The notes under the pieces: generated by a model
The model's database searches: none
The model's input: only the letters and a program-made list of their open reading frames with translations
What the model was told of the DNA's origin: nothing
Sequence record: OP557969.1
Strand: one strand, 5' to 3'
Source: Escherichia phage ph0011
Length of the DNA: 64,000 bases
Part shown: positions 3-26,122 of the stretch, piece after piece
How the letters are laid out: each line of letters begins with the position of its first letter
How positions within the stretch are numbered: position 1 is the stretch's first letter
Program-made: the position numbers and the translations under genes

Positions 3-212
3 CATTTCAAGTACCAAGATGAAGAGGCAGACAATTATCCTTTACCTAATTTAGTACAAATACAGGAAGAGGAATTATTCCAGTACAGTTTAGTATACGA
101 CATTGATATTTGCACGATGCCAGTATTAATTAATATACAAAAAGTGATGCTCGATATGTATGATAAGCTAATACAAGGTATGTCAGGGAGGATCATTGAA
201 ATCGATATATAA
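3..212 (+). CDS. FamA (FQxS) paralog, 5'-truncated by window edge
   Basis: Frame 3 open from window start, stop 210-212; core EEELFQYSLVYD. Confidence 0.6.
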   Translation, partial: HFKYQDEEADNYPLPNLVQIQEEELFQYSLVYDIDICTMPVLINIQKVMLDMYDKLIQGMSGRIIEIDI

Positions 213-408
213 GAATTTACCTAATGCATATATGTTGAAGTACAAAGAGTTTATTAAAGATGTATATGTAGATCCTTTCAATATAAAATTATCAGAGTTC
301 GATGTATTATTTTATCTAGGGACAATAGTACAGGACCAATACGTTAATAATCTAATAAGGTGTTTGAAAAAGGAGATACAATGCAGACCCAAATGTACAA
401 AAAAATAA
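196..408 (+). CDS. small hypothetical protein, FamB (LFYLGT)
   Basis: TTG start 5 nt after GGGAGG; core LSEFDVLFYLGTIVQDQ; paralogs at 381, 11717, 11913. Confidence 0.55.
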   Translation: MKSIYKNLPNAYMLKYKEFIKDVYVDPFNIKLSEFDVLFYLGTIVQDQYVNNLIRCLKKEIQCRPKCTKK

Positions 409-644
409 ACCGTTATTTGTATGCATCAAAGTACAGGGATTTTTGTTTACAAGGAGGTGAGGACGATTTCGGTCTGAGGTTATCGGAATTTAATATGTTA
501 TTTTATCTTGGTACATCCGTACAAGAAGAAATGGTTCAGAAATTTCTCAATAACCTTGTACAAAAAATTAATATTCAAATTATGATGCATAAATTACAGA
601 ATGAGATAAATGAATATGAATCTAGAAATAGTTCAGGATCTTAA
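381..644 (+). CDS. small hypothetical protein, FamB (LFYLGT)
   Basis: ATG 5 nt after AGGAG (track ORF 360..644); core LSEFNMLFYLGTSVQEE. Confidence 0.6.
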   Translation: MQTQMYKKINRYLYASKYRDFCLQGGEDDFGLRLSEFNMLFYLGTSVQEEMVQKFLNNLVQKINIQIMMHKLQNEINEYESRNSSGS

Positions 645-1005
645 AAAAGTAATATTTCTTTTGAATACAAGAAGCTCTTTATATAAGGAGTTCAAAGATA
701 AGGATAGTTCTTTTAAACCAGTATGTATAGAATTCAATGATTTAATTACAGATGCATTGTTTGAATTTTCCGAGAAATATCAAGATACAGTGTTTGGTGT
801 TAGGAATGCTATTCATCCAATTACAGGCACAAGGAAGATAACGTTATCTCATTTTACATTTGACAATAAAGATTTATTCAGTTATAATCCCAGTACATCT
901 TTATATTTTATTCCAAAAGGAGACAAGAATAGTCCGATTCATTACGGATGGATTATATCTTATGTAGTGCAAGGAAAGGAGTATCCTATCAAATGGCACG
1001 ATTAG
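610..1005 (+). CDS. hypothetical protein, possibly decayed FamA member
   Basis: 131-aa ORF; N-terminal helix LEIVQDLKKVIFLL like FamA N-termini; no intact F-Q core. Confidence 0.45.
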   Translation: MNMNLEIVQDLKKVIFLLNTRSSLYKEFKDKDSSFKPVCIEFNDLITDALFEFSEKYQDTVFGVRNAIHPITGTRKITLSHFTFDNKDLFSYNPSTSLYFIPKGDKNSPIHYGWIISYVVQGKEYPIKWHD

Positions 1006-1145
1006 GACAGGAAGATTATAGTTTAAATATATTATTAAGAAATATTAATGCGGATTATTGTGTATGGGTTAAGAATCGAGACATGATGTATTATGATTTT
1101 TATTTAGATTATGCCATCAAACGCTTTTTAAGAGAAGAATATTAA
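948..1145 (+). pseudogene. possible frameshifted 3' part of 610..1005
   Basis: Overlaps upstream ORF by 58 nt in another frame; QEDYSLNILL resembles a FamA core lacking F-Q. Confidence 0.3.
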
Positions 1146-1321
1146 TGAAAGTGGTTAATACAAAAGCAATAAATGATTTAAATGATTCTTTATTAGTAAG
1201 TATTAAGTTGTATTATAATATTCATTTAAAGGGTGGTATTAACGATTTTAGTTATTACTTAAGTGCAATATCACAAGAGCATTTAAATTATCAAGATCAT
1301 TTATTACATCCAAATCATTAA
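1145..1321 (+). CDS. small hypothetical protein (58 aa)
   Basis: Hand-translated ORF below track cutoff; TAATG overlap with upstream stop; fills gap before 1330. Confidence 0.3.
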   Translation: MKVVNTKAINDLNDSLLVSIKLYYNIHLKGGINDFSYYLSAISQEHLNYQDHLLHPNH

Positions 1322-1329
1322 GGCAAATT

Positions 1330-1890
1330 ATGAATGAGATAGAGTTATTATCACACAAGATTAGTACAATAGCTACAGTACTGAACAACAAAAATAAAGT
1401 ACATAGTTCCTTTTTAAGAATTAATAAAGTTGGTAGTAGTTTATATTTGGAAGTAAAAGCGGGTTTTGCAGGACAGTACAATGATAAAATCAAAGAAGAA
1501 GTTAAGGGAAATGAAGATGCTTTCATTGAGGTTTGTGCAACAGTTGGTTCAAATCCAATTTCAGTATCACCGTTAATGCGAAATGAAAATTCAGAATTTG
1601 ATTCCAGTTTCGAAGGTTATTTGTGGTACAATTATGGTGATAATTATTTTATATATCAGAATTCCAAAACGAATTATAGTGAAGAAGGTATAAAATTCAT
1701 TGATCCTTACAATGAAGCAGAAGTATTTCAGAAATCCCTAATATACAATACAAATCAAATGAAGTATCTTATGTTGTTTAGTACAATGCATTTGAATCCA
1801 TTGAAAGATAATTTAAAATTTTTCATTCGTTTAGAATTAGTTGATATTACTTATGATCTTTTAATCCAAGGAAGTAGTTATGAAGTATAA
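1330..1890 (+). CDS. FamA (FQxS) paralog
   Basis: 186-aa ORF; core EAEVFQKSLIYNTN. Confidence 0.75.
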   Translation: MNEIELLSHKISTIATVLNNKNKVHSSFLRINKVGSSLYLEVKAGFAGQYNDKIKEEVKGNEDAFIEVCATVGSNPISVSPLMRNENSEFDSSFEGYLWYNYGDNYFIYQNSKTNYSEEGIKFIDPYNEAEVFQKSLIYNTNQMKYLMLFSTMHLNPLKDNLKFFIRLELVDITYDLLIQGSSYEV

Positions 1891-2194
1891 AATGATGTAT
1901 ACACCATCATTAGTATATGTAGAATTAGAATCAAATGATAATGGGTGGAATTTCATTAAACATATCGATACCAATACATGGTACATGGCTCACTTGGATA
2001 ATAATGTGGTATCAGACCATTTTATGGATTTCAATATCTTAGATGAAGATGAATTTTTCCAAATGCAATTGGTGCTTGACACAAATGGTTTTGATATGGT
2101 ATTATTAAAGAATATACAGAAAGCTGTTGATGAATTAATAGCTGAACATAATTTGAGCGAAATAAGGATTAGTTATGACCTCGAAGTACTGTGA
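1880..2194 (+). CDS. FamA (FQxS) paralog, short variant
   Basis: 104-aa ORF; core EDEFFQMQLVLDTN. Confidence 0.7.
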   Translation: MKYKMMYTPSLVYVELESNDNGWNFIKHIDTNTWYMAHLDNNVVSDHFMDFNILDEDEFFQMQLVLDTNGFDMVLLKNIQKAVDELIAEHNLSEIRISYDLEVL

Positions 2195-2525
2195 GTTTGA
2201 AATTAATAAGTTAAGAGAATGGTTTTATAATATTGAAATTGAGGCCATTCCTTATCATACATATGAACAAAGTGATTTACAATGTATTGATATTAGGGAG
2301 TTGTACAAATATTATCAAAGTGCGTTAGAGATGCATAAATTATTTTTGAGTACGGATTTCTTTATGCAGTATAATTTTGAGGAATATAATAATTATAACT
2401 TAGTACAGAAATACGTAGTAGCAAAGTACATGTACATTCAAGGTATTAAAGGTTGTATTGAATTCAATACTGTTCTTGCTTTAGTTGAGGTAATTTTATG
2501 TACAGCATGTGCATATCTAATTTAG
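2175..2525 (+). CDS. hypothetical protein
   Basis: 116-aa ORF in gene chain; only weak FamA-like bits (YQSALEMHKLF, DFFMQYNF). Confidence 0.5.
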   Translation: MTSKYCEFEINKLREWFYNIEIEAIPYHTYEQSDLQCIDIRELYKYYQSALEMHKLFLSTDFFMQYNFEEYNNYNLVQKYVVAKYMYIQGIKGCIEFNTVLALVEVILCTACAYLI

Positions 2526-3016
2526 AGTTTAGTTTAGATGCAGCCTTTAAATTTGCACATAAGATAGAAACAATATATAGTTTTTTTAGTGAAGTTTATG
2601 AAGTTTGTGCTAAACGATATATCGATACAATAGACATTAGCAATAAGTTCGATGTATGGCACAAAACAATCCAAAGCAAAAAGCAGTGTGCAGCAGTTTT
2701 TAGTGTTTTATCATTTAATCCCAGCAATTGTTACCCAGAGAAGCATGAACGTTATCCCAATGACGACATGTGGTTTGTGTACAAAGAAGATGCTGATATG
2801 TCGTCATTTGAAGTTCCTGATAATTTTGATATCAGTGATTTAACAGAAGAGTGGTGGTTCCAGCAGAATTTAGTACATGATGATATTGATTTATTTTTCT
2901 ATATCGTGTTCAAAATACTTTATCACAACAATATAGTTAAAGATAGTGTATCGTTTTCATGTCTATATATTGATGAGTTGTTCGAAGATATCAAAAATCT
3001 CAAGCCTGTATCGTAA
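2498..3016 (+). CDS. FamA (FQxS) paralog
   Basis: GAGG RBS; N-term FSLDAAFKFAHKI; core TEEWWFQQNLVHDD. Confidence 0.75.
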   Translation: MYSMCISNLEFSLDAAFKFAHKIETIYSFFSEVYEVCAKRYIDTIDISNKFDVWHKTIQSKKQCAAVFSVLSFNPSNCYPEKHERYPNDDMWFVYKEDADMSSFEVPDNFDISDLTEEWWFQQNLVHDDIDLFFYIVFKILYHNNIVKDSVSFSCLYIDELFEDIKNLKPVS

Positions 3017-3031
3017 GATATGGGCTTTTTT
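3002..3031 (+). terminator. weak hairpin + T-run
   Basis: aagcc(3002-3006)/ggctt(3023-3027), large loop, then tttttt. Confidence 0.4.
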
Positions 3032-3033
3032 GT

Positions 3034-3062
3034 TTGACTCAAGTACAAATGAATGGTACAAT
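3034..3062 (+). promoter_or_regulatory. sigma70-type promoter
   Basis: TTGACT - 17 nt - TACAAT, 25 nt upstream of the 3088 start. Confidence 0.55.
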
Positions 3063-3087: not shown

Positions 3088-3636
3088 ATGGAAAATTTTC
3101 AAATACCACAAGATTACGATACAGCGAAAGAGATGGTACACAAGGTTCATTACATTTTTAATGAATTAATTATTGCAAATTCATCCTGTATGCAAATTGA
3201 GTTAAAGGGTATTAATAGTGAAGAAGTTTTTTTGGCTTCTCCAAGTTCAATTATTCCGTTGTATGGTATGGACCGTTTATGGTTCATGAGAGATGCACCA
3301 ATTGACAGGTACAAAATACAAAAAAAATCAGAGAATGATTTTCTTTATGATTATTTTAATATTTCATTACAAGCACACGATATAAGTACAATGAGTGCAG
3401 AGGAATATTTTCAGCACAGTACAGTGTATAGTCCAGAAGAAATCTTTGTTGTTATGCTTGTTGCAAAATTGAGTACTGTTGATTTTGGGACGTACCCAAA
3501 TAAATCATTCAAGATTATTATTCCTGCATTTGTTGATCTTTATGATTTCATTGTGCACAAGAAAGAAAGTACAGTGTACGATATGCAGCGTTCAAATATC
3601 AGTTTAATTGCAGTAAGTGCAGGGGAATTAAAATGA
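3088..3636 (+). CDS. FamA (FQxS) paralog
   Basis: AAGGAGA RBS; core SAEEYFQHSTVYSPEE. Confidence 0.8.
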   Translation: MENFQIPQDYDTAKEMVHKVHYIFNELIIANSSCMQIELKGINSEEVFLASPSSIIPLYGMDRLWFMRDAPIDRYKIQKKSENDFLYDYFNISLQAHDISTMSAEEYFQHSTVYSPEEIFVVMLVAKLSTVDFGTYPNKSFKIIIPAFVDLYDFIVHKKESTVYDMQRSNISLIAVSAGELK

Positions 3637-4241
3637 ACATAGACCAATTAATGAAGTACAGTAAAAGTACAGTTCCAGTACTAAGTAAAGTGTTAGATGC
3701 CTTCACTGCTAAGTACCCTGAAGGTTCAGAGTTAAATATTCCTTTTACTACACCAGGGATTGATGATACTTACATGGTACACATTGGTAGTTCAGGTATT
3801 GTTTTGAAGCAAAAGTACAGTGATAGTGAATATTATGGTTTGAAACTGGATAAAATTTCAGGAGAGAAGACACCTTTTGAGTTTTGGATTCCGAATAGTA
3901 TTGAATCATGGAATACACATATTAATAAGAGAGACGAAGGTAATATTTCTCTTGTAAATTATAAGGAAAAAAGATTTGACGTATTTTATTATTACAGTAC
4001 AGATACGTTTCCAGAAGAGATTTATTTAAATTCAGAGATGTATGAAGATATTGAATCATTTTTCTTTCAGTTATCATTGGTACATGATATCATGCCATTG
4101 CAAGCGTTCAGGGATGAAATAAATTTAGCGAAAGAGATTTCGGATATGTTACCTGAATTTAGTGTTCTTTATGGTAGTAGAGCTTTACCTGAAAATGTGT
4201 ATATAGAATTTATTTCTTGTGTTCAAGGATTGAATATATAA
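3633..4241 (+). CDS. FamA (FQxS) paralog
   Basis: ATGA overlap; core IESFFFQLSLVHD. Confidence 0.75.
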   Translation: MNIDQLMKYSKSTVPVLSKVLDAFTAKYPEGSELNIPFTTPGIDDTYMVHIGSSGIVLKQKYSDSEYYGLKLDKISGEKTPFEFWIPNSIESWNTHINKRDEGNISLVNYKEKRFDVFYYYSTDTFPEEIYLNSEMYEDIESFFFQLSLVHDIMPLQAFRDEINLAKEISDMLPEFSVLYGSRALPENVYIEFISCVQGLNI

Positions 4242-4242
4242 T

Positions 4243-4437
4243 ATGAACGAAGATGATATCAAAAAAAGGCATACGAAGTTTGAACTGCTCCCTGACGAAA
4301 TCCACATTGATATAGTTAATTTTAACATCAAAGCGTCCTTGCATCCTATATCACAAGATGATTTTGACAACAGAGTGCTTAACATAGTGGTGATTTTGTG
4401 CTATAATCATTTCAGTGAATATTTTAACAAAAGATGA
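4243..4437 (+). CDS. small hypothetical protein
   Basis: 64-aa ORF fitting exactly between neighbours. Confidence 0.45.
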   Translation: MNEDDIKKRHTKFELLPDEIHIDIVNFNIKASLHPISQDDFDNRVLNIVVILCYNHFSEYFNKR

Positions 4438-4444
4438 GGTACAT

Positions 4445-4966
4445 ATGTATCAGCACACGTACAATACATCATATGAGTATGGGTACAGCATTTTGAAGAT
4501 TATCAAAGCGTTAGAGGGTGGATTGCTTAGTCATAAGTACACCAGAGTAGGTGACAATTGGTTCAGAAATGATGATGATGAGTTCAGAAGTCATAAAATC
4601 GTTTACAGTAATAATTACAGTGCTAATTATCTTCAGGATGTGGTTATGTGCTTTGAATACGTGTTACAGTTCAGGGGTTCCATCAGACCAGAGTTAAGAG
4701 AACACATGTACATTCGATACCTACCAATGCTTGAGGATGAGAAATCAATATTCAATTCAGTACACCACAGAGTACGAGATAGAACATTCAGGAATATTTT
4801 GGAAGATGAAGCTGCCTATTTTCAGCGATCATTGATTGATGCTCCTGATGTGTTACAGATGCAGAATTTGTATAATGTATTAGATGCGAACATCGATACT
4901 GATATCTTTTTTTCCTTAAGTGATTATGAAACATGTTTGGAAGATTTAAAGGAAATAGGATTATGA
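4445..4966 (+). CDS. FamA (FQxS) paralog
   Basis: ATG after GAGGT (track ORF 4415..); core DEAAYFQRSLIDAPD. Confidence 0.75.
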   Translation: MYQHTYNTSYEYGYSILKIIKALEGGLLSHKYTRVGDNWFRNDDDEFRSHKIVYSNNYSANYLQDVVMCFEYVLQFRGSIRPELREHMYIRYLPMLEDEKSIFNSVHHRVRDRTFRNILEDEAAYFQRSLIDAPDVLQMQNLYNVLDANIDTDIFFSLSDYETCLEDLKEIGL

Positions 4967-5307
4967 GTGGATTTACAGTATATATAGTAAACGTCAGTAC
5001 AGATGGTAGTTTAATTGAATTTGATGTAGTTGATGACGATGATAATGCATATGGTATTAAGGTGCAAGACAATGTTGTGCAGTTCAGTACAAGAACAAAT
5101 TACGAAAATCCAGTTCCTGTTCCTAATTTCATAGAAGACGAAGCTGTACGATTCCAATACGAAACTGCCTTTGACAATATAGCGATGCATATTATTATGC
5201 AACACAGTTTAGTTCAATTAGTTCCTTTATTTAGACAAAATGTATATGTACATGAATTGTCGATTAATAACGTTCAAAGTTCCGTTTTGTTCGGCACAAA
5301 TATGTAA
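4963..5307 (+). CDS. FamA (FQxS) paralog, variant
   Basis: ATGA overlap (track ORF 4933..); core EDEAVRFQYETAFD. Confidence 0.65.
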   Translation: MSGFTVYIVNVSTDGSLIEFDVVDDDDNAYGIKVQDNVVQFSTRTNYENPVPVPNFIEDEAVRFQYETAFDNIAMHIIMQHSLVQLVPLFRQNVYVHELSINNVQSSVLFGTNM

Positions 5308-5316: not shown

Positions 5317-5859
5317 ATGAGTTTATTAGATACCATAGAAAAAGACAGAAGTGCCATTAAGAGATTAAAAAATCTGGTTCTGTGTATTGTGAACAACGTT
5401 GAAAAGTTTGAAGTCCAAGGAAGAATTGGTGATATTTCACATACAGGAATAAAATCCCTGAAGTCAGATTTATTAATTCATAAGGAAGATAAATTATTAT
5501 TTGTATTGAGTTCAGATTTATTGGTTGCAAGTAATGGTTTCAATTCGGTATCAACACAAGATGGTAGTACTGGATTATATCTATCACAGGGTGTACAGAC
5601 GAATGAACATAAGTGTTTTAGTTCAAGAGTACAGAATCCCTTTAAGTTTAATACAGAACAAGCTACAGAGCTTTTTGAGGCTTCAGAAGAGATGTTATTT
5701 CAGTACAAAATGGTCTATACAGATTTTGAAATACGATGCCTATACGCTGTTAAGCATTATGTACAAGAGTTCGAAGATTTAAATTATCTTTTAGTTCGAA
5801 CGAATACGAAGAACATTGACATATTAGAAGATTACATTTCAACAGTTGTTAGTGTGTAA
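5317..5859 (+). CDS. FamA (FQxS) paralog
   Basis: AAGGAAGG RBS; core SEEMLFQYKMVYTD. Confidence 0.75.
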   Translation: MSLLDTIEKDRSAIKRLKNLVLCIVNNVEKFEVQGRIGDISHTGIKSLKSDLLIHKEDKLLFVLSSDLLVASNGFNSVSTQDGSTGLYLSQGVQTNEHKCFSSRVQNPFKFNTEQATELFEASEEMLFQYKMVYTDFEIRCLYAVKHYVQEFEDLNYLLVRTNTKNIDILEDYISTVVSV

Positions 5860-6427: not shown

Positions 6428-6567
6428 AGACGTTTCGTATGATGTATTCAAACGTACAATAAAACAATACTATATAACTTTTTATAATTGATATTTTTTA
6501 AAAAATACACAATCACAACGTGCTCCTTTTATTGGAATTTACCTTATTAATTATAGTTGAGGGGAAG

Positions 6568-6945
6568 ATGGAAATGAAATATAAAGATTTTCATATAGGG
6601 ACATGGATGTACACTGGTGAGTTTATTACGTGCTGTAATTTATACAAGCGTGATTTAAACTACTCAAGGGAGAAGGTTATAAAGTTCGCAGATTCACAAT
6701 TTTATTTTATGGAGTTAAGTACTGGAATTCGTGTTAAATCAACCGTTATGCTGGATTATACAGTTCTGGATGAGGCACAATTATTTCAGGAGTCATTAGT
6801 ATTTGATAAGAAGTACAACTGTACATTAGAAGAGATAGTTGAAATCCAGCGTAGGATCAAATTTATTCACAAGGATTGTATCGATAAATGGTGTAAAACT
6901 GGTGAAACTAATTTTAGTAATTATTTCAATCTAGGGGAAGAGTGA
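6568..6945 (+). CDS. FamA paralog, short FDKKY subclass
   Basis: ATG after GAGGGGA (track 6520..); CCNL.K.D; core DEAQLFQESLVFDKKY. Confidence 0.8.
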   Translation: MEMKYKDFHIGTWMYTGEFITCCNLYKRDLNYSREKVIKFADSQFYFMELSTGIRVKSTVMLDYTVLDEAQLFQESLVFDKKYNCTLEEIVEIQRRIKFIHKDCIDKWCKTGETNFSNYFNLGEE

Positions 6946-7663: not shown

Positions 7664-7664
7664 T

Positions 7665-19548: not shown

Positions 19549-20113
19549 TTATATGACAGAACGTCATCAGATATTATATGATATCAGTACTAAAATGTTA
19601 TCAATCGTTAATAGTGGAAAAGAAATTGAAAAACAATACCTCATCCGTGATGTAGCAATTTCATCTAAATGTTGGTCCAATGAATATTACAACCACGGTA
19701 TTCTTACGATTTCTGGTGCTAGAAATATTTGTATTGTAAAAAATAAAAACAAAAGTAATGAAGAGTGTGAGATTAGAACCGATATACAAATTAAGGATGA
19801 TGGAAGTTTTTCACACTACCCATTTCATATTAGTACTATTGGTGTTTTATATAATATTAAAGTACTATTCGGTGATGAAGAGTATAAGTTAAAATATATC
19901 GACCCAGAATCGAGTACAGTCCAAGAAGACCTGTTTCAGATGAGCACAATTATGCCCGAAGAAGTTCTTAGTACTGTTGTTTTTTGTAGTTTAATTTATC
20001 ACGAATACAAAAAGAACCAATTCGATTTCCACATGATAGGAACGTACATCTTCAATAATTTGAATGTAGATCGTTTAAAAGCATTAAATTCAGCAATGGA
20101 TAAGGTGCTATAA
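19535..20113 (+). CDS. FamA paralog, long subclass
   Basis: AAGGA RBS; core VQEDLFQMSTIMPEE. Confidence 0.7.
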   Translation: MNAYSYMTERHQILYDISTKMLSIVNSGKEIEKQYLIRDVAISSKCWSNEYYNHGILTISGARNICIVKNKNKSNEECEIRTDIQIKDDGSFSHYPFHISTIGVLYNIKVLFGDEEYKLKYIDPESSTVQEDLFQMSTIMPEEVLSTVVFCSLIYHEYKKNQFDFHMIGTYIFNNLNVDRLKALNSAMDKVL

Positions 20114-20541
20114 TGACAAGAGATGATTGTTTGTACATATGGGATGTAGTTGAAAATACACTTTCAAATCCAGAAAAATATAAAACACAAAAAAGACAGC
20201 GACATAAAACATGGATAGATTTGTTCGTTGAGGACATACACGCAGTGACTATTTGGGATTCACCGAGGGCATCAGCATCTACTCTATTGGACAATGAATG
20301 TATTGATTGCATTAATTCCACTTTTCATCTACACGGTTCTACAATTTTCGGTACATTTCTGGATATTGAAAATAAAGATGATATTGATTCACTTGCGTTA
20401 CAATATCAAGTACTGTATAATACTAAATTAATTTATGATTTAGTTCTAGCTTCTTATGTGTATAAATTAATGAAGAAATATAATTATATTTCTGTTTCAG
20501 TTTATACTAAGGATATTCTTTCATTAAGAGACAAAACATGA
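20113..20541 (+). CDS. FamA-like, decayed core
   Basis: TAATG overlap; DSLALQYQVLYNTK. Confidence 0.55.
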   Translation: MTRDDCLYIWDVVENTLSNPEKYKTQKRQRHKTWIDLFVEDIHAVTIWDSPRASASTLLDNECIDCINSTFHLHGSTIFGTFLDIENKDDIDSLALQYQVLYNTKLIYDLVLASYVYKLMKKYNYISVSVYTKDILSLRDKT

Positions 20542-21047
20542 ATTTATTAAATGCACGCGAATTGGTTGAGATGTATGAGATATTGTCTACATATAAAAAT
20601 TCACCTGACGATGTAATTATCAACAAAAAGTTCCATGTCAGTGTTGATCATATGACAAATATAGATATGATTTCTTTGGTTGAAAGTAATAAGTCAGGTC
20701 TTGAACGTGATATCATGCGTTTGATTTATATTCCCAAACCATCATATCCTAATGATAGTTCAATTAGTAATGAGACTTTTATATATAATCCTTATACTGA
20801 TTGTACTTTAGTTTCGGTATCGAATCAGAAACAAGATACTTTTCAATTCATCTATACCAGTACTGATAACCTTGAAGAAATCGAATTCCAAAATAATACA
20901 TTAAGTCCATGTGGAAGTATTATTGCATTCATGTCATATCTGTGGTCAATCAAATCAGATACCATAGTATATAGTTCAAATTATACACAGGATTGTATTG
21001 TTGAATCATTTAAAGTTCTAAAGGAATACTATGAAAATAACAAATGA
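20538..21047 (+). CDS. FamA paralog
   Basis: ATGA overlap; core LEEIEFQNNTLSP. Confidence 0.7.
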   Translation: MNLLNARELVEMYEILSTYKNSPDDVIINKKFHVSVDHMTNIDMISLVESNKSGLERDIMRLIYIPKPSYPNDSSISNETFIYNPYTDCTLVSVSNQKQDTFQFIYTSTDNLEEIEFQNNTLSPCGSIIAFMSYLWSIKSDTIVYSSNYTQDCIVESFKVLKEYYENNK

Positions 21048-21612
21048 TTTTATTAAAAGTTTAGTACACCCTATGCTTAGTGTTATGAAAAAATCACAGT
21101 CTCTACCTGAAGATAACGATTACAAGTATAATCGTTTTGATTCAGATGTGTTTTGTATTGAAATGGAAATTAATAACAATCGTGATTTTTATTTAAAATT
21201 CAAAGAATCTTCAAGTTCGTACTACAATTTTGACATGAATTTCAAAATGGACACAAATATTGAAGAAAACGCAATTTCAAATCATATTAGTAGAAATGGT
21301 TTTATGTATAGATCTAATATGCATAATAATAAAAAAAGTGTTAGATCTAAATGGAACCAGCAATTCACTAAAATTTGTGAAATTGATAGCAGTACTTTTG
21401 GTGAAGAACAATATTTTCAATTAAGCACAATTCATGAACTACCACCATATGATTTTGTTAAAACATGGTTTGATATTCATAATATAATTGATGAAACAAT
21501 TGAACTTCCATTTAGTTTATCAATATCATATACTGCAACTAAAACGTTTATTTTTACTGAAGATATGATTATGAAAAAAATATGGGCAATGCTCCCTCTT
21601 ATGAGTGATTAA
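21031..21612 (+). CDS. FamA paralog, long subclass
   Basis: core GEEQYFQLSTIHELP. Confidence 0.75.
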   Translation: MKITNDFIKSLVHPMLSVMKKSQSLPEDNDYKYNRFDSDVFCIEMEINNNRDFYLKFKESSSSYYNFDMNFKMDTNIEENAISNHISRNGFMYRSNMHNNKKSVRSKWNQQFTKICEIDSSTFGEEQYFQLSTIHELPPYDFVKTWFDIHNIIDETIELPFSLSISYTATKTFIFTEDMIMKKIWAMLPLMSD

Positions 21613-21624: not shown

Positions 21625-22176
21625 ATGAATCAAAGTCATGATCTTTTTAAATTATGTGCATCCAAAGATGTTGAAGGATGGACAGATAAAGTCAATACAA
21701 TCATCAATAGATTCCGAGTCTTTAGTGCTCGTGCACGAAGTGATGGTTCTATGAATTTCAAATATTCAATGACAATTGATGGTGTTGTAATTCATGTAGA
21801 TGAAGAAAAACTATCTATTAATCTACATGATTCATGTGTATTTGCTATTCATCAAAAGATGGGTTCAGGATGGGGTTGCAACAACATGAACTCAAAAGCA
21901 TTCTTTTGGGTTGGTCATTACAATACAGTTCTTGATCCTTCCATCAAATCCAATCTATTAGTTAATAATATCGTTTATGATTTATCGTATCCAGAAGAGT
22001 CACATTTTCAATTGAGTACATTACATAATTTAGTCAAATATGAAGATTGTGTCAAAGCATTAGAATTATGTCATTCAATTGATCTTAAAGATAAGTTGAT
22101 ACAAATTTACCCGTTGTTCTTCCATGAAGAAGTACAATGCACACTTGAACATATTTTATATGGGTACGATAAATGA
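21625..22176 (+). CDS. FamA paralog, long subclass
   Basis: ACGGAG RBS; core PEESHFQLSTLHN. Confidence 0.75.
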   Translation: MNQSHDLFKLCASKDVEGWTDKVNTIINRFRVFSARARSDGSMNFKYSMTIDGVVIHVDEEKLSINLHDSCVFAIHQKMGSGWGCNNMNSKAFFWVGHYNTVLDPSIKSNLLVNNIVYDLSYPEESHFQLSTLHNLVKYEDCVKALELCHSIDLKDKLIQIYPLFFHEEVQCTLEHILYGYDK

Positions 22177-22775
22177 GAAAAAGTTACCAAGAAGCTATTG
22201 ACCTAATTCGAGAAGTTATTAAGGTTGCACCAGGTGCAATAGCATTCAAGAAGTCTCTATATAAGAAATATGGTCCCATGTCAAGTATGTGCTGTCAAAA
22301 GAAACGTAGTAAATTCACTACGCAGTACTGGCATGACTCTATTATCTTGAGTAATGAACATCAGCGTATTTTAACAATCGAATCAGTAGATAATCAATAT
22401 GGGGAAGGATTGATTTGTATTCCTGACTATGATGAAATTAATTTCAATTGTGGGGATTATGAGACAACATTATTATTACACGAGGGTTATCCTGAAGGTG
22501 ATGTAATGGCAGAGTATAATCCAAAAACAAAAATACTGAAACGTGGTATACAGTTCAAAATCGATAACAAAGATGATGTGGAAGCTGCACTAATGCAACT
22601 GAGTACAAGCGAACCTATCTCTATTGATGTAGAAGAGTTATGGGGAATCATTTCAGTACTTAATGAGTGTTATAAAATTAAATCATTGCATAAGTACTCT
22701 ATAATTTTACATACTAATTGTGCAATGATAAAATGTAAGAACATACAAGAGATGGTGGTTCCAGATGAACTTTAA
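22173..22775 (+). CDS. FamA-like, decayed core
   Basis: ATGA overlap; VEAALMQLSTSEP. Confidence 0.6.
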   Translation: MRKSYQEAIDLIREVIKVAPGAIAFKKSLYKKYGPMSSMCCQKKRSKFTTQYWHDSIILSNEHQRILTIESVDNQYGEGLICIPDYDEINFNCGDYETTLLLHEGYPEGDVMAEYNPKTKILKRGIQFKIDNKDDVEAALMQLSTSEPISIDVEELWGIISVLNECYKIKSLHKYSIILHTNCAMIKCKNIQEMVVPDEL

Positions 22776-23349
22776 AGAAATAGAAAGTAAAATTAAGTAC
22801 TTCAAAGATATCAAAAAACTTTGGGAAAAGTATAAAATTGTTTATCAATTCCAAGATGATGATACTGTTCAAACCATTGATATTAGTATTCGTGTGAAGT
22901 TCAAGAATGGTAGTTATGGTGAAGTTAAATTGAATTCTATGGGTGTATATCTTAGAGACTATGATGGTTCCACTCTTGCACAATTTGACTTCACACCTGA
23001 CCCTGATGATATGTTACTGAGTGAAATCAATGCGTATGACCTTGAGATGTTTGGTGGGAAACCTTTATTATTCCGCTTATCAGATGAATGGGATGAGGTT
23101 TACTACACATACAAAGATGGAGTGATTCGAGACGTGAATGATGAGGTTGTAAATGATATGGAAGAACGTCTATTCCAAGAATCATGTGTGTCATCTGAGT
23201 CATATACATACCAATACCTACTTGACATGTTCGATTTGTATAGTAAAATAGATTCAGAAATGGGTACATTGGGTATTCATTATCTCACAATAAATGACTA
23301 TGCTCAACTCGAAACCGCAGTGAAAGCATTATCTAAAGTTCTGAAATAG
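22765..23349 (+). CDS. FamA paralog, long subclass
   Basis: core MEERLFQESCVSSES. Confidence 0.7.
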   Translation: MNFKEIESKIKYFKDIKKLWEKYKIVYQFQDDDTVQTIDISIRVKFKNGSYGEVKLNSMGVYLRDYDGSTLAQFDFTPDPDDMLLSEINAYDLEMFGGKPLLFRLSDEWDEVYYTYKDGVIRDVNDEVVNDMEERLFQESCVSSESYTYQYLLDMFDLYSKIDSEMGTLGIHYLTINDYAQLETAVKALSKVLK

Positions 23350-23358: not shown

Positions 23359-23772
23359 ATGAAACTGTATCATGCGAGTACTGTAAAAATTGATAACTTT
23401 TATATCCCGTATGGTGGCCTTCATATGGGAGGTAAACACAGTGCACTTGAAGCTGCATTACGCAAGCTAAGAAGCCCACTGAACGTTGTTGCCGCTGATA
23501 CAGTATACTTGCATACTTTAGAAGTTGATGTTGACAACGTGCTTCTATGGGAGGATTTGGGTAGTGATGATGAGTGGCGTTCACTAATTGAACATTGTAA
23601 TTCTAAAGGTTACGATGCTGTTCAATACACAAATGAATACGAGCCGGATAATGTTCCTAGTTATATGATTTGGGATACGTCTAAGGTTCGCATTGTCGAA
23701 GTTGATGCTATGCATATGGATGATGCAGAAATGATCATCGAAGATTTCCTTGATGAATATGAAGGTGTATAA
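23359..23772 (+). CDS. hypothetical protein, not FamA (interrupts the array)
   Basis: 137 aa; MKLYHAS..GGLHMGGKHSALEAA; locally higher GC; acidic C-terminus. Confidence 0.6.
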   Translation: MKLYHASTVKIDNFYIPYGGLHMGGKHSALEAALRKLRSPLNVVAADTVYLHTLEVDVDNVLLWEDLGSDDEWRSLIEHCNSKGYDAVQYTNEYEPDNVPSYMIWDTSKVRIVEVDAMHMDDAEMIIEDFLDEYEGV

Positions 23773-24290
23773 TGATTGAACCTATGACAGTACTAGCACG
23801 TACTAAATTATTATTGAAGATTGGTGAGATATTAACTGATATTTTGTACAGTGAGATTGATATACATGAATTATGCATTATACAACCATGGGAATTAACC
23901 AAATTCTCTGCGTTCTATCGTTTATCATATAAAGGGGAAACAGTTCTGGACTGGAACCCCAAAGCCAGATTTATGGAGTATGCAGCTTTATATGGAACAT
24001 GTGGTGGAATAACAAATGATTTTAAAGAAATTAAAACTCAAACAGCGTCACATGAATTTAATGATTTATTATATCCAGAATTTAAGTTAACAGAAGAATC
24101 ATTATTCCAGCACTCATTAATTTTAAAAGATCTTAATGATTTAGAGTACTACAAAGAATTAGTAGATATTTTTATGAATACACGACTTTCAAAAGATATT
24201 GTGATATTCTGGTATACAGAGCATGTTACGGAGGAATTGCTTACTGAATTTCTTCTAAATATGACAGCTATAAAGGAGAAGTTATGTTAG
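23772..24290 (+). CDS. FamA paralog
   Basis: TAATG overlap; core TEESLFQHSLILKD. Confidence 0.75.
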   Translation: MIEPMTVLARTKLLLKIGEILTDILYSEIDIHELCIIQPWELTKFSAFYRLSYKGETVLDWNPKARFMEYAALYGTCGGITNDFKEIKTQTASHEFNDLLYPEFKLTEESLFQHSLILKDLNDLEYYKELVDIFMNTRLSKDIVIFWYTEHVTEELLTEFLLNMTAIKEKLC

Positions 24291-24757
24291 ATATTTTAGG
24301 AAACATCGATACTGCAAATTATTTTATCCAAGACGCACTGTTTAATACACTACAAAAAGGTTTAGAAGTTCGTCACAATGTATACCAAGGTGATGGTTAT
24401 TTCGTTGATATTATTGAGGCACGAAAGAATACGTTTAATCTTAACGTTACGACGCTTGGAAGACAGAACATTGCACGAATTTTAGTAAGTAAAGATGAAA
24501 TTGTATTAAGATACAGTGCTAAGTTTATGCTGACTTACAAGAAAAAAACTGACATGTTCAGTACTAATTTATTTGATGAGCCATTTGACCTTGAAGATAT
24601 TGAAGCTACTTTCTTCACTCAAAGTACTATGGTAAAATACACTGATGTTCAATTTTCAGCAGACGTTATGTCTGAAACATTACAAATGATCAAGGTATTA
24701 TTTTATGCTTTTGAGCAATTTAGAGAAGAAAGAAATAAGGTTAACAACCACAGATGA
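24284..24757 (+). CDS. FamA-like, decayed core
   Basis: AAAGGAGAAG RBS; IEATFFTQSTMVKY. Confidence 0.6.
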   Translation: MLDILGNIDTANYFIQDALFNTLQKGLEVRHNVYQGDGYFVDIIEARKNTFNLNVTTLGRQNIARILVSKDEIVLRYSAKFMLTYKKKTDMFSTNLFDEPFDLEDIEATFFTQSTMVKYTDVQFSADVMSETLQMIKVLFYAFEQFREERNKVNNHR

Positions 24758-25118
24758 ACTAATAGAGGCGATTACTAAGGATTCAAAATACCATAAAGGG
24801 ATTCGTCTATACTTTATAGATACTGGCTCAATGGAAGGTACATACATTTATGGCTCACAATCTTTGTCTTATGTTGTAATACCAAATAAAAATGTAAAAA
24901 TCTTTTTAGGTTCAAGTAAAAAAGCGTTCTTGACAGTTAATGACAACAGTGTTATTATGAATTCCTTGGGTCATGACAAGGTAGAAATTGATCTAAACAC
25001 ATTAGAAGAAATGGATTTTTTTCAGTACGAGTGTTTAGGCGTTGACTTACATGGTATCAGTAGTGATATGATAAAATCATTAATTAAATATTTCAAGGGT
25101 GTTTATAAATGTATCTAA
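24705..25118 (+). CDS. FamA paralog
   Basis: core LEEMDFFQYECLGVD; start uncertain (53-nt overlap). Confidence 0.6.
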   Translation: MLLSNLEKKEIRLTTTDELIEAITKDSKYHKGIRLYFIDTGSMEGTYIYGSQSLSYVVIPNKNVKIFLGSSKKAFLTVNDNSVIMNSLGHDKVEIDLNTLEEMDFFQYECLGVDLHGISSDMIKSLIKYFKGVYKCI

Positions 25119-25606
25119 CAAAATCGATGAAAAATTCATTTGATAAGATCAAGAGTGTTCTTGGTGGTGAGCATATTACTAGTGTGACTCAAACGGCTGA
25201 CCAAATTCAATGCAGTTCAAATGATTATACTGTAATTCTAGGTTTACATAGTCTACGTTTGACAATAGTAAATAATATTGACAACACTGCAATTGTAATA
25301 ACACCATGCCATATCAAAAATGAAAATGGTGTATATCTTCATCATATGGGAACAGTATTTCATATTTTTAATACAAATGAAAATATTGTTAAAGAATACA
25401 ATACACTTAATATTGATTCAGGTGAATTATTTCAAATGAGCACGTTGTACTCATGTAATTTTACAGATACTTCACGTATTTTACCATTCTTCTTAGAAAT
25501 TATTAAGAAAATGGAAAATTTAAAACGTGAATACAATAAAGAAATGGTTCCTGAAGCTATATTAAATATTACTAATGCTATAGAGAAGTATAATTCAGTG
25601 ACTTAA
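25109..25606 (+). CDS. FamA paralog
   Basis: core DSGELFQMSTLYS. Confidence 0.7.
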   Translation: MYLTKSMKNSFDKIKSVLGGEHITSVTQTADQIQCSSNDYTVILGLHSLRLTIVNNIDNTAIVITPCHIKNENGVYLHHMGTVFHIFNTNENIVKEYNTLNIDSGELFQMSTLYSCNFTDTSRILPFFLEIIKKMENLKREYNKEMVPEAILNITNAIEKYNSVT

Positions 25607-25648
25607 TAAAAACGCACATGGAGTGCATGAGAAGATCAAGGATAGATC

Positions 25649-26122
25649 ATGGAGATTAAAACCGTTGAAAATGGGGAAATTGATGACATTTTAGAGTTGG
25701 ATGCCTTCAAAGTTCATGATATAATGTTCAATGTGAAAGACATTATTCAATGTCTGTTTTTGTGCAGCAAGACTATGCATGACTTTTTTCACAACCCAAA
25801 TACAAATGTTTTTATACTAACAATCAGTACTGAAAGCTCGTTCATCATGGGTATGCCTATGAGTACGAATGAACAGTATATTGATTGTGTTATTCGCAAT
25901 AACGATAGTATTACACCTCAATCTGAAGTACGTAAAAAGAAAAACACTTACACAATCAAAGATGATAAAATTATGATGTGCTGTAGTAAGGGGTTTATAT
26001 TAGATAATTTTATTGTCAAAGATAGTTATCATGACTTTAAAGTTTCCGAAAACCAATCTAATGTAGTTCTTTATGCAAGTGACATAGAAAGTCTAACAGT
26101 AAAAGATCCCAGTTTGGAGTAA
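25649..26122 (+). CDS. hypothetical protein
   Basis: 157-aa ORF, AAGGA RBS; no FamA core seen. Confidence 0.6.
   Translation: MEIKTVENGEIDDILELDAFKVHDIMFNVKDIIQCLFLCSKTMHDFFHNPNTNVFILTISTESSFIMGMPMSTNEQYIDCVIRNNDSITPQSEVRKKKNTYTIKDDKIMMCCSKGFILDNFIVKDSYHDFKVSENQSNVVLYASDIESLTVKDPSLE

What the first reader, a model, noticed from the sequence alone, without database searches (positions are those of the whole stretch)
3..26122. About 50 tandem paralogs of one unrecognised small-protein family (FamA, acidic-x-x-aromatic-F-Q-x-S/T core) fill ~24 kb
The ORF track shows 45 ORFs with the same short core about two-thirds of the way along the protein. The core is one to three acidic residues, an aromatic or aliphatic residue, F-Q, any residue, then [ST]-[LTC]-[IVL]-[YHFW]-[DNSP]. 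Examples: 8190 SEEFYFQQNTIYDEDVLD, 9100 SEEYYFQQSTVYNEDVLD, 6945 DEAELFQAALVFDKKY, 13247 QEDELFQESLVWDKKY, 17230 ESVMFQLSLIHEPNE, 21625 EESHFQLSTLHN, 25109 SGELFQMSTLYS. Six more ORFs carry decayed versions (12639, 16691, 18401, 20113, 22173, 24284). Forty-seven members lie head-to-tail on the + strand between 3 and 25606, mostly joined by ATGA/TAATG/TGATG stop-start overlaps. Outliers sit at 26286, 28311, 38266 and 38841. Three subclasses are visible. One is ~105-125 aa with FDKKY (6568-8006, 10007, 13247, 13596, 15465). One is ~150 aa with an N-terminal M-S-x-x-S-A-L-E/K-x-A-x-x-I helix and a C-terminal WYFK (8190-10010, 10321, 10761, 13939-15475, 16224). One is ~170-200 aa (17230-23349). 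Outside the core the members are strongly diverged. I do not recognise the motif as any named domain. Inference: one family occupying more than a third of a 64-kb phage segment suggests diversifying pressure, for example a repertoire of host-factor or defence inhibitors or decoys, not a housekeeping role.
Basis: partly seen in the sequence, partly recalled or inferred. Interest (0 to 1): 0.9.

Follow-up and report, generated by a model that had tools for sequence, protein, structure and literature searches.

The report
Giant paralog family in jumbo phage
About 45 head-to-tail genes in this giant E. coli phage segment really do encode one uncharacterised small-protein family with no recognisable fold, probably made early in infection, and its role (most likely binding host or defence factors) is still untested.

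Summary
The window comes from a Rak2-like (Asteriusvirus) jumbo coliphage. Positions 3-25,606 hold 35 securely related paralogs, 8 probable and 3 possible. Two more probable members lie at 38,266 and 38,841. All sit on the + strand and share [ST]-E-E-x-[YL]-F-Q-x-S-[LT]-[IV]-[YH]. A strict form of the motif occurs in 25 of 132 genes, against 0.05 expected by shuffling.

In fEgEco12 the array starts upstream of the window, just after the 21-kb terminal repeat. A second cluster lies at 275-297 kb. The total of about 62 genes is roughly 9% of that genome. The Klebsiella phage Muenster carries about 34.

The paralogs are old (closest pair 45% identical) and are kept as syntenic orthologs. They evolve faster than their neighbours, but dN/dS is 0.07-0.70, so selection is relaxed purifying, not demonstrably diversifying.

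Conserved sigma-70 promoters and terminators, absence from a relative's virion proteome, and acidic soluble proteins suggest an early, non-structural binder repertoire. The function remains inferred.

The parts
3..212 (+). FQ-family member, truncated by the window edge (C-terminal 69 aa, QEEELFQYSLVYD)
   Evidence: Translation. Ortholog of fEgEco12 29156-29467, which is a family hit.
1330..1890 (+). FQ-family member (186 aa), solid
   Evidence: LOO-HMM E 1.5e-8. HHalign 97.7%.
1880..2194 (+). FQ-family member (104 aa), solid
   Evidence: LOO E 1.8e-6. HH 91.4%.
2498..3016 (+). FQ-family member (172 aa), solid
   Evidence: LOO E 2.1e-9. HH 96.5%.
3002..3062 (+). Intrinsic terminator hairpin (3002-3027) followed by a sigma-70-type promoter (TTGACT-17-TG-TACAAT, 3034-3062), in the 71-bp gap before 3088
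   Evidence: Conserved in fEgEco12; phAPEC6 has an equivalent terminator and promoter.
3088..3636 (+). FQ-family member (182 aa), solid
   Evidence: LOO E 5.1e-9. HH 95.0%.
3633..4241 (+). FQ-family member (202 aa), probable
   Evidence: Motif ESFFFQLSLVHD. Broad HMM 2.7e-7. LOO 0.058. HH 20.5%.
4415..4966 (+). FQ-family member (183 aa), solid
   Evidence: LOO 5.1e-7. HH 95.7%.
4933..5307 (+). FQ-family member (124 aa), probable
   Evidence: Motif EAVRFQYETAFD. LOO 0.016. HH 46.4%.
5317..5859 (+). FQ-family member (180 aa), solid
   Evidence: LOO 2.3e-6. HH 94.6%.
6520..6945 (+). FQ-family member, short FDKKY class (true start probably ATG 6568), solid
   Evidence: LOO 1.3e-10. HH 99.8%.
6942..7301 (+). 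FQ-family member, short class (119 aa), solid; modelled
   Evidence: LOO 5.4e-18. HH 97.7%. AF2 pLDDT 89, pTM 0.84.
7298..7663 (+). FQ-family member, short class, solid
   Evidence: LOO 1.2e-11. HH 96.3%.
7593..8006 (+). FQ-family member, short class (true start probably 7662), solid
   Evidence: LOO 1.5e-14. HH 96.9%.
8190..8660 (+). FQ-family member, ~150-aa class, solid
   Evidence: LOO 1.8e-15. HH 96.9%.
8657..9097 (+). FQ-family member, ~150-aa class, solid
   Evidence: LOO 7.1e-20. HH 96.8%.
9100..9567 (+). FQ-family member, ~150-aa class, solid; modelled
   Evidence: LOO 1.4e-20. HH 98.6%. AF2 pLDDT 84, pTM 0.77.
9567..10010 (+). FQ-family member, ~150-aa class, solid
   Evidence: LOO 1.5e-21. 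HH 98.2%.
10007..10321 (+). FQ-family member, short class, solid
   Evidence: LOO 1.8e-5. HH 85.7%.
10321..10764 (+). FQ-family member, solid
   Evidence: LOO 1.1e-11. HH 98.5%.
10761..11216 (+). FQ-family member, solid (EEGYFQGS)
   Evidence: LOO 8.8e-13. HH 98.4%.
11203..11739 (+). FQ-family member (178 aa), probable
   Evidence: Motif DEQCFQLSCTD. LOO 0.0079. HH 43.9% to 12052.
12052..12648 (+). FQ-family member (198 aa), solid
   Evidence: LOO 1.8e-6. HH 92.6%.
13247..13606 (+). FQ-family member, short class, solid
   Evidence: LOO 9.2e-8. HH 96.5%.
13596..13931 (+). FQ-family member, short class, solid
   Evidence: LOO 4.8e-8. HH 94.0%.
13939..14475 (+). FQ-family member (178 aa), solid
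   Evidence: LOO 4.5e-9. HH 98.3%.
14472..14501 (+). Sigma-70-type extended -10 promoter (TTGACC-18-TGTGATATAAT) in the 59-bp gap
   Evidence: Both hexamers and the TG are conserved in fEgEco12, phAPEC6 and the divergent Turkey5.
14535..15008 (+). FQ-family member, solid
   Evidence: LOO 1.7e-8. HH 98.3%.
15005..15475 (+). FQ-family member, solid
   Evidence: LOO 1.1e-14. HH 98.9%.
15465..15827 (+). FQ-family member, short class, solid
   Evidence: LOO 4.6e-9. HH 97.6%.
15811..16224 (+). FQ-family member, solid
   Evidence: LOO 1.4e-5. HH 81.0%.
16212..16691 (+). FQ-family member, solid
   Evidence: LOO 6.9e-12. HH 98.2%.
16688..17233 (+). FQ-family member with a decayed motif (181 aa), solid by profile comparison
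   Evidence: HH 82.2% to the family. HH 95.4% to 17795.
17230..17802 (+). FQ-family member, long class, solid
   Evidence: LOO 2.4e-6. HH 97.3%.
17795..18313 (+). FQ-family member, long class, solid
   Evidence: LOO 6.3e-8. HH 95.2%.
18312..18373 (+). Terminator hairpin (18312-18331) plus sigma-70-type promoter (TTTACA-17-TGTGTTATACT, 18345-18373) in the 75-bp gap
   Evidence: Conserved in fEgEco12, phAPEC6 and Turkey5.
18389..18964 (+). Probable member without the motif (191 aa)
   Evidence: phmmer link to 18964. HH 46.9% to 18964.
18964..19548 (+). FQ-family member, long class, probable
   Evidence: Motif REAYIFQRSLL. LOO 0.0039. HH 46%.
19535..20113 (+). FQ-family member, long class, solid
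   Evidence: LOO 5.2e-5. HH 87.1%.
20113..20541 (+). Possible decayed member
   Evidence: HH 24.6% to the family and 17.7% to 17230. Above the control maximum of 5.1%, but unproven.
20538..21047 (+). FQ-family member, probable
   Evidence: Motif LEEIEFQNNTLS. Broad HMM 0.0049. HH 15%.
21031..21612 (+). FQ-family member, long class, solid
   Evidence: LOO 1.9e-4. HH 91.8%.
21625..22176 (+). FQ-family member, long class, solid
   Evidence: LOO 0.0078. HH 79.4%.
22173..22775 (+). Possible decayed member
   Evidence: HH 19.8% to 15465 only. Unproven.
22765..23349 (+). FQ-family member, probable
   Evidence: Motif MEERLFQESCVS. LOO 0.0019. HH 23%.
23772..24290 (+). FQ-family member, solid
   Evidence: LOO 8.5e-7. 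HH 89%.
24284..24757 (+). Possible decayed member
   Evidence: HH 17.1% to 3633 only. Unproven.
24705..25118 (+). FQ-family member, probable
   Evidence: Motif LEEMDFFQYECLG. HH 56.7% to 15465.
25109..25606 (+). FQ-family member, solid; last of the main array
   Evidence: LOO 0.035. HH 74.1%. Broad HMM 8e-5.
38266..38844 (+). Dispersed FQ-family member, probable; absent at this locus in fEgEco12
   Evidence: phmmer link to 21031. Broad HMM 9.8e-9. HH 35%. No ortholog found.
38841..39530 (+). Dispersed FQ-family member (229 aa), probable
   Evidence: LOO 0.0024. HH 35%. In the iterated HMM set. Ortholog fEgEco12 67346-68035.

Best explanation
The segment is the main array of a lineage-specific multigene family in Rak2-like jumbo phages (Asteriusvirus, Alcyoneusvirus). 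About 45 tandem + strand genes each encode a small (104-229 aa), soluble, mostly acidic alpha+beta protein.

Shown:
- All members share one core. It runs: antiparallel beta-sheet; a short helix carrying [ST]-E-E-x-[YL]-F-Q; a loop S-[LT]-[IV]-[YH]-[DN]; a long helix; and a final strand [FY]-[YF]-x-D. The ~150-aa class adds an N-terminal helix.
- The part N-terminal to the motif varies greatly in length and sequence.

Inferred:
- The motif is the folding nucleus of a common scaffold. It contains helix-capping S/T and D/N residues and buried aromatic and aliphatic residues. It is probably not a catalytic or cleavage site.
- The array is transcribed early by host sigma-70 RNA polymerase. It would be read as at least four long, translationally coupled units from the conserved promoters in the few intergenic gaps.
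- The products stay in the cytoplasm and are not packaged.
- Each paralog uses its variable sheet and loops to bind a different host factor or defence protein. Together they would form a host-takeover or anti-defence repertoire on one scaffold.
For: Family and fold:
- establish the family.
- AF2 models have pLDDT 84 and 89 with the same order of secondary-structure elements. The motif block has the highest confidence, 97.
- F and Q are invariant in 152 sequences, S in 131 and E in 126.

No known relative:

Early and accessory context:
- In fEgEco12, whose termini were mapped experimentally (direct terminal repeat, DTR, 1-20,993; PMC13070987), the array runs from 27,270 to 56,262. It follows the DTR and a second small-gene array.
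- Klebsiella phage Muenster has the same layout.
- Extended -10 sigma-70 promoters and terminators lie in the gaps. They are conserved even in Turkey5, where the flanking proteins are only about 30% identical.
- An ADP-ribosyltransferase-like gene, so annotated in Muenster, lies inside the array.

Non-structural:
- None of phAPEC6 gp404c-gp465c is among the 62 proteins found by virion mass spectrometry.
- No member has a transmembrane-like segment. The median pI is 4.9.

Maintained but fast-evolving:
- 41 of 42 members have a reciprocal, syntenic ortholog in fEgEco12.
- dN/dS is 0.07-0.70.
- Median identity to Turkey5 is 33%, against 59% for non-family genes. Several well-conserved non-family genes (25649, 27517, 30403, 30924, 36886, 39792) stay at 77-88%.
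- Copy number is 34-45 across genera, with local gains and losses.
Against: - There is no direct evidence of expression timing, localisation, binding partners or phenotype.
- Sigma-70-like hits overall are no more frequent than in shuffled sequence (133 against 131), so only the gap-located, conserved promoters count.
- The phage encodes its own sigma factors, which could use similar promoters.
- dN/dS gives no sign of positive selection, whether gene-wide or pooled by region.
- Invariant polar Q and S could mark a shared functional site and not a folding core.
- The AF2 models rest on paralog-only alignments of 34-40 sequences.
- About a quarter of the family in a relative lies outside the array, including loci among metabolic and structural genes. 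One common early role is therefore not guaranteed.
Confidence: 0.45

Rival explanations
1. The family serves the phage's own machinery and does not target the host. For example, members could be adaptors, substrates or regulators for the phage-encoded Clp-type proteolysis system, or assembly and replication accessory factors. The conserved FQ segment would then be the common docking site and the variable part would select the client.
For: - The window encodes two ClpP-like proteins, at 52302-52997 (PF00574, E 1.6e-41) and 58330-58935.
- The relative fEgEco12 is annotated with a Clp ATPase, an HslV-like subunit and a 'protease adapter protein'.
- An invariant short motif across paralogs that are otherwise about 15-25% identical is what a shared docking site would look like.
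Against: - Nothing links the family to these proteases.
- The motif is predicted to be folded (helix, pLDDT 97), not a disordered degron or docking peptide.
- Members evolve much faster than phage core machinery.
Confidence: 0.15
2. The array is largely dispensable 'filler' made by tandem duplication after capsid enlargement. This is the ratchet model of Hua et al. 2017. Individual copies would then have little specific function.
For: - Hua et al. [quoted passage not shown]
- The RaK2 paper notes that about 10% of gene products are paralogs.
- dN/dS is about twice that of neighbouring genes.
Against: - All copies are intact ORFs with dN/dS of 0.07-0.70.
- Syntenic 1:1 orthologs persist between phages at 30-40% identity and partly into the Klebsiella phages.
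- There are no recent duplicates (45% identity at most).
- The promoters and terminators are conserved.
- This is the signature of maintained genes, not decaying filler.
Confidence: 0.12
3. The members are small enzymes, or ligand or nucleotide binders, whose active site is formed by the invariant E-E...F-Q-x-S residues.
For: Q (152 of 152), S (131 of 152) and E (126 of 152) are polar residues under the strongest constraint. The core has half the dN/dS of the rest of the protein.
Against: - [ST]-x-x-E and [DN]-E-E are classic helix-capping arrangements, which fits a structural role (inference).
- More than 45 paralogous enzymes with a hypervariable remainder would be unusual.
Confidence: 0.05
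4. The E-x-x-[YL]-F-Q-x-S segment is a proteolytic processing site, resembling the TEV/3C site E-x-x-Y-x-Q|S/G. The proteins would be processed, perhaps as packaged or ejected proteins.
For: P6 E, P3 Y/L, P2 F and P1 Q match the TEV consensus known from the literature. 10761-11216 even reads EEGYFQGS.
Against: - P1' is variable (Y, L, Q, N, E...) and is rarely S or G.
- The segment is predicted to be helical and is the most confidently folded part, not an exposed loop.
- No member's ortholog is in the phAPEC6 virion proteome.
- The proteases checked or annotated are ClpP-like in the window and, in the relative fEgEco12, a T4-type prohead protease and an HslV-like subunit by annotation; an unclassified 'peptidase' g432 was not examined, and no 3C-like protease was identified.
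Confidence: 0.03

Closest known systems
PHROG families phrog_9317, 12674, 15629, 13866, 34600, 22855, 29816, 38478, 30978, 19795, 34017, 32531 (all 'unknown function')
   Same: These are the same proteins. Each window member hits one of them at E 1e-34 to 1e-150, with weak cross-hits between them.
   Different: PHROGs treats them as more than 12 unrelated small families. Here they are shown to be one superfamily with one predicted fold, about 62 copies per genome.
Tandem gene arrays noted in phage 121Q and phage G (Hua et al. 2017, PMC5646251) and the 'about 10% paralogs' remark for RaK2 (PMC3622015)
   Same: Same phage group and same phenomenon: large tandem paralog arrays in Rak2-like jumbo phages.
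   Different: Those papers give one sentence each, with no family definition, motif, structure or context. [quoted passage not shown]
Host-takeover early gene modules next to or within terminal repeats (SPO1 host-takeover module, T5 pre-early region, T4 early genes); from general knowledge, not tested here
   Same: Many small genes of unknown function near a genome end, with host-type promoters, non-structural products and rapid evolution.
   Different: Those modules consist of mostly unrelated genes. Here a single fold has been amplified to 45 or more copies. No sequence or fold similarity to any of them was detected.
Multigene families of large eukaryotic DNA viruses (ASFV MGF110/360/505, poxvirus terminal host-range and immune-evasion families); from general knowledge
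   Same: Tandem, same-orientation paralog arrays near the termini of a linear dsDNA genome. Copy number varies between strains, and members diverge faster than core genes.
   Different: Bacterial virus, unrelated proteins. A role in immunity evasion is unproven here.
[not shown]

Membership tests
Any Pfam-A / NCBIfam / PADLOC family | Score above the curated cut-off, or a consistent sub-threshold hit across members | tested here: not met
   40 members were scanned. No family is hit by more than one member and none reaches its cut-off.
[not shown]
   [not shown]
PHROGs 'unknown function' families of Rak2-like phages | Significant full-length HMM match | tested here: met
   E values from 1e-34 to 1e-150 for ten members. 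This carries no functional information.
ADP-ribosyltransferases (the S-T-[ST] / [QE]-x-E resemblance was considered) | ART fold plus the R/H, S-T-S and Q/E-x-E triad in that order | tested here: not met
   [not shown]
TEV/3C-type cleavage site | E-x-x-Y-x-Q followed by S/G at P1', in an exposed extended segment, with a cognate protease | tested here: not met
   P1' is variable. The segment is helical with pLDDT 97. Only ClpP-like proteases are present in the window.
Virion / internal (ejected) proteins | Detection in purified virions | tested here: not met
   phAPEC6 virion MS lists 62 proteins, none from gp404c-gp465c. This is evidence from a relative, not from this phage.
Viral multigene family (works-like category) | Tandem same-strand paralogs near a genome terminus | tested here: met
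Viral multigene family (works-like category) | Copy number varies between relatives | tested here: met
Viral multigene family (works-like category) | Divergence faster than core genes | tested here: met
Early (host-RNAP-transcribed) phage genes | Functional sigma-70 promoters and early transcripts | tested here: inconclusive
   Conserved extended -10 promoters and terminators lie in the gaps. No transcript data are available, and overall promoter-like hits equal the shuffled expectation.
Anti-defence / host-factor inhibitors | Binding to, or neutralisation of, a host protein | not testable with these tools
   No complex prediction or experimental data were available.
Beta-clamp-binding motif (QL[SD]LF / QLxLxL), recalled resemblance to Q-x-S-L-[IV]-[YF] | Exposed peptide that docks on the sliding clamp | not tested
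   Resemblance recalled from memory only. The segment is predicted to be structured.

The most novel reading that the evidence does not exclude
A bacteriophage counterpart of the multigene families of large eukaryotic DNA viruses. One previously unseen alpha+beta scaffold would have radiated into about 60 specialised proteins, roughly 9% of the phage's genes. Each would neutralise a different bacterial immune system or host factor early in infection. That would make these jumbo phages carriers of the largest single-fold anti-host repertoire known in phages, and a mine of new inhibitors.
Probability: 0.3. Interest if true: 0.85.

Novelty: new variant of a known kind. Interest (0 to 1): 0.6.

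Why it matters
Rak2-like jumbo phages are used as therapy candidates, yet more than 70-80% of their genes are unannotated. This work collapses more than 12 'unknown' PHROG families and about 9% of the gene content into one superfamily with a defined motif, a predicted fold, a genomic address next to the terminal repeat, and conserved promoters.

That turns a diffuse block of 'hypothetical proteins' into a testable unit. Block deletions, toxicity or partner screens, and one crystal structure would show whether phages build large single-scaffold repertoires against host factors or defences, as poxviruses and ASFV do. If the members are inhibitors, they would also point to their targets.

The family also bears on how jumbo genomes grow. 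The duplications here are ancient and the copies have been maintained.

Tried and rejected
- Chance recurrence of the motif: rejected.
- P0007, a 773-aa hit with 13 stretches in the 1.84-billion-protein search: a low-complexity repeat artefact.
- Relationship between the ~70-aa LGTNYQE family and this family: rejected (HHalign 0.1%).
- Positive selection: Nei-Gojobori dN/dS per gene and pooled by region were all below 1. Site models were not run.
- Recent duplication or gene conversion: rejected (45% paralog identity at most).
- TEV-like cleavage site and ART-like motif: rejected (see the membership tests).
- The search for related loci with the alignment failed because no stretch was conserved enough.
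- tblastn with the HMM consensus reached only Escherichia, Klebsiella and Salmonella jumbo phages. GAP32 and Serratia BF relatives are suggested only by weak BFVD fold hits.
- Literature searches found no study of this family.
- Members 610-1005, 2175-2525, 12639-13241, 25649-26122, 26280-27134 and 28311-29159 were tested and not accepted.

Full report
**Source and setting.** The window is 84-89% identical at the DNA level to Asteriusvirus jumbo coliphages such as TH47, Turkey3, fEgEco12, PBECO4 and 121Q. All 25-29 genes under window 8,000-20,000 are annotated 'hypothetical protein' in those records. One window protein is 100% identical to a protein from an E. coli assembly that holds a 349,498-bp contig. 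G+C content is about 31% and nearly all genes are on the + strand.

- It occurs in 25 of 132 called genes, against a mean of 0.047 (maximum 2) in 1000 shuffles.
- phmmer all-vs-all at E<1e-3 already links 23 genes. An iterated HMM converges on 34.
- To avoid circularity I rebuilt the profile without each candidate. About 31 genes then score E 1e-21 to 1e-4.
- Leave-one-out profile-profile comparison used each gene with its orthologs from four relatives. It gave more than 90% probability for 28 genes and 74-89% for 7 more, always aligning the FQ region to the same profile columns. All control genes from 27-64 kb stayed at 5.1% or below.
- Pairwise profile comparisons rescued 16688 (95% to 17795). 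They gave intermediate support to 11203, 18389 and 24705, and only weak hints (17-25%) for 20113, 22173 and 24284. They gave none for 610, 2175, 12639, 25649, 26280 and 28311.
- The window begins inside a member: 3-212 encodes ...QEEELFQYSLVYD....
- My tally is 35 solid, 10 probable and 3 possible members. Two of the probable ones are dispersed, at 38,266 and 38,841.
- 46 of 60 junctions in 1-26,200 overlap and 97% is coding. Family genes occupy 18.7 kb of that stretch.

**Anatomy of the protein.**
- Across 152 sequences (40 from the window plus 112 database representatives), F and Q are invariant. S is present in 131, the first E in 126 and the second E in 107.
- The consensus is [ST]-E-E-x-[YL]-F-Q-x-S-[LT]-[IV]-[YH]-[DN].
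- Weaker conserved features are Y-I-x-Y and F-Y strands upstream and a [FY]-[YF]-x-D strand downstream.
- The distance from the motif to the C-terminus is fairly constant (32-75 residues). The distance from the N-terminus to the motif ranges from 59 to 144.
- AlphaFold2 on paralog alignments gave confident models. Window 9100-9567 has pLDDT 84 and pTM 0.77. It shows an N-terminal helix, six strands, a short helix carrying SEEYYFQ (block pLDDT 97), a long helix, a strand and a C-terminal helix.
- The short-class member 6942-7301 has pLDDT 89 and pTM 0.84. It shows five strands, the FQ helix, a long helix and a strand.
- The order of elements is the same, so the three length classes are variations on one core.
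- The proteins have no transmembrane-like segment and are mostly acidic, with a median pI of 4.9.

**Comparison with what is known.**
- Pfam on all 40 members, NCBIfam and PADLOC give no family hit by more than one member.
- A PDB sequence-profile search gives nothing below E 0.079.
- Foldseek against BFVD finds only uncharacterised proteins of 121Q, SP27 and RaK2, and more weakly GAP32 and Serratia BF.
- PHROGs contains the proteins, but as more than 12 separate 'unknown function' families.
- A full HMMER pass over 1.84 billion representative proteins found only 113 clusters at E<1e-3. One of them is a repeat artefact.
- tblastn finds the family in 41-44 of 50,697 phage records, all Escherichia, Klebsiella or Salmonella jumbo phages.
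- The literature has only passing remarks. RaK2 is said to have 'nearly 10% paralogues'. [quoted passage not shown]

**The family is bigger than the finding.**
- fEgEco12's linear genome and 20,993-bp direct terminal repeats were confirmed experimentally.
- In that genome the order is: repeat (1-20,993, about 56 spaced small genes); an array of about 30 genes of ~70 aa with an LGTNYQE motif (21,091-27,280); then the FQ family from 27,270 to 56,262.
- The window therefore starts a few genes into the array.
- An iterated HMM search was run over all ORFs of fEgEco12 0-350 kb plus the window: 1143 ORFs on both strands. It finds 62 members in fEgEco12 and 39 in the window, with no - strand hit.
- Besides the main array there is a second cluster at 275.5-297.5 kb. 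Single copies lie at 106, 119, 311, 317 and 332 kb. Most of them carry the motif.
- That is about 9% of the 670 genes.
- phAPEC6 has at least 44 members in its array, Turkey5 about 39-43 and Klebsiella phage Muenster about 34-35, in the same position after its predicted repeat.

**Evolution.**
- Paralogs within the window are old. The median closest-paralog identity is 27% and the maximum is 45%.
- 41 of 42 members have a reciprocal, syntenic ortholog in fEgEco12. Many also do in Turkey5 and some in Muenster.
- Between the window and Turkey5, family orthologs have a median identity of 33%, against 59% for other genes. Several well-conserved non-family genes (25649, 27517, 30403, 30924, 36886, 39792) stay at 77-88%.
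- Against fEgEco12, dN/dS for family genes is 0.07-0.70 (median 0.28). Non-family genes have a median of 0.15.
- Pooled over 40 genes, dN/dS is 0.29 N-terminal to the motif, 0.16 in the 15-residue core and 0.31 C-terminal. Values against phAPEC6 are similar.
- So the genes are maintained by purifying selection that is about twofold relaxed. Nothing here demonstrates diversifying selection, although site-level tests were not possible.
- Local gain and loss occurs. For example, 38266-38844 has no counterpart in fEgEco12, and fEgEco12 has extra copies near 31 kb.

**Expression signals.**
- Sigma-70-like matches overall are no more frequent than in shuffled sequence (133 against 131, and 107 against 128).
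- However, three of the only five gaps longer than 40 bp carry good promoters with an extended -10 TG. They are at 3034-3062, 14472-14501 and 18345-18373. Two are preceded by terminator hairpins (3002-3027, 18312-18331).
- The hexamers, the TG and the hairpins are conserved in fEgEco12 and phAPEC6. For two of the gaps they are also conserved in Turkey5, despite about 30% identity of the flanking proteins.
- This supports at least four long, translationally coupled units read by sigma-70-type RNA polymerase, which implies early expression. That step is an inference.

**Not structural.** The phAPEC6 virion proteome of 62 proteins contains none of gp404c-gp465c, the orthologous array. None of the family loci in fEgEco12 is annotated as structural.

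**Interpretation.** The best-supported reading, at about 0.45, is an early, cytoplasmic, non-structural repertoire built on one scaffold. The FQ segment would be the folding core, and the variable N-terminal sheet and loops would recognise different host or defence proteins. The neighbourhood is consistent with this:
- An ART-like gene lies inside the array (Muenster annotation; ortholog of window 23359-23772).
- Dam-like methyltransferase, RNA ligase plus PseT-like kinase/phosphatase, Sir2, NUDIX and ClpP-like genes lie downstream.

The rivals are:
- a role in the phage's own Clp-type proteolysis or other internal processes (0.15);
- duplicated filler (0.12), disfavoured by purifying selection and retained orthologs;
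- small enzymes (0.05);
- a TEV-like processing site (0.03), disfavoured by the folded helical context, the variable P1' residue and absence from virions.

**Verdict.** The finding is real, larger than reported, and an uncharacterised family with no detectable fold relative. Its scale, about 9% of a 375-kb phage genome on one scaffold, is unusual for phages. The kind of thing, a terminal multigene family of accessory genes in a large DNA virus, is known. The function is inferred from context only.

Noticed in passing
window 196-408, 360-644, 11717-11935, 11913-12104; fEgEco12 (L001) 21,091-27,280: A second, unrelated paralog family of ~70-aa proteins with the motif [LF]-x-x-[LF]-G-T-[ND]-[YF]-Q-E-x-[YF]-[VI]. 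About 30 tandem copies lie directly after the terminal repeat in fEgEco12, and four copies are interspersed in the window. HHalign against the FQ family gives 0.1%. [quoted passage not shown] 2017.
   Followed up: partly
fEgEco12 L009 (275.5-297.5 kb), L006 (106,370; 119,601), L010 (311,329; 317,243; 331,600): A second cluster and scattered single copies of the FQ family lie outside the main array, and most carry the motif. The family totals about 62 genes in that genome.
   Followed up: partly
window 23359-23772 (+): A non-family gene embedded in the array and unusually conserved: 76% identical in Turkey5 and 57% in Muenster. Its Muenster ortholog is annotated 'putative ADP-ribosyl transferase, HHpred 4GV2 99.8%'. 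Pfam and the PDB sequence search gave nothing here, and PHROGs says 'unknown'.
   Followed up: partly
window 52302-52997 and 58330-58935 (+): Two ClpP-like proteins (PF00574, E 1.6e-41 and 5.5e-5). The relative fEgEco12 is also annotated with a Clp ATPase (168-170 kb), an HslV-like subunit and a 'protease adapter protein'. The phage therefore seems to carry its own ATP-dependent proteolysis system.
   Followed up: partly
window 55357-58029 (-): The only large minus-strand gene in the window. It encodes an 890-aa protein with nine Big_2 Ig-like domains.
   Followed up: no
window 35297-36781 (+) and 38266-38844 (+): A 494-aa tail-fibre-like gene (phrog_13714, E 6e-184) and an extra FQ-family copy are both absent from the corresponding locus of fEgEco12. 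This looks like an indel hot spot in an otherwise collinear region.
   Followed up: partly
window 39792-40934, 42033-42965, 60077-60829 (+): Orthologs of genes annotated as RNA ligase and PseT-like polynucleotide kinase/phosphatase (a T4-type RNA repair pair) in relatives, plus a Sir2-family protein (PF02146, E 1e-19).
   Followed up: no
window 32672-32941 / 33517-33807 / 33788-34066; 56408-56599 / 56705-56878 / 56894-57106; 43192-43452 / 46028-46354: Three further small paralog sets detected by all-vs-all phmmer.
   Followed up: no
fEgEco12 L010, 330-349 kb (- strand): An array of about 14 RCC1-like 'chromosome/DNA condensation' paralogs. Their phAPEC6 homologs are virion proteins. This is probably the 'array of closely related genes' mentioned in the phAPEC6 paper.
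   Followed up: no
[not shown]
   Followed up: no
window 6428-6519: A 92-bp AT-rich gap before the FDKKY sub-block. In fEgEco12 it is replaced by a longer, unrelated spacer containing a G-run. No convincing promoter was identified.
   Followed up: no
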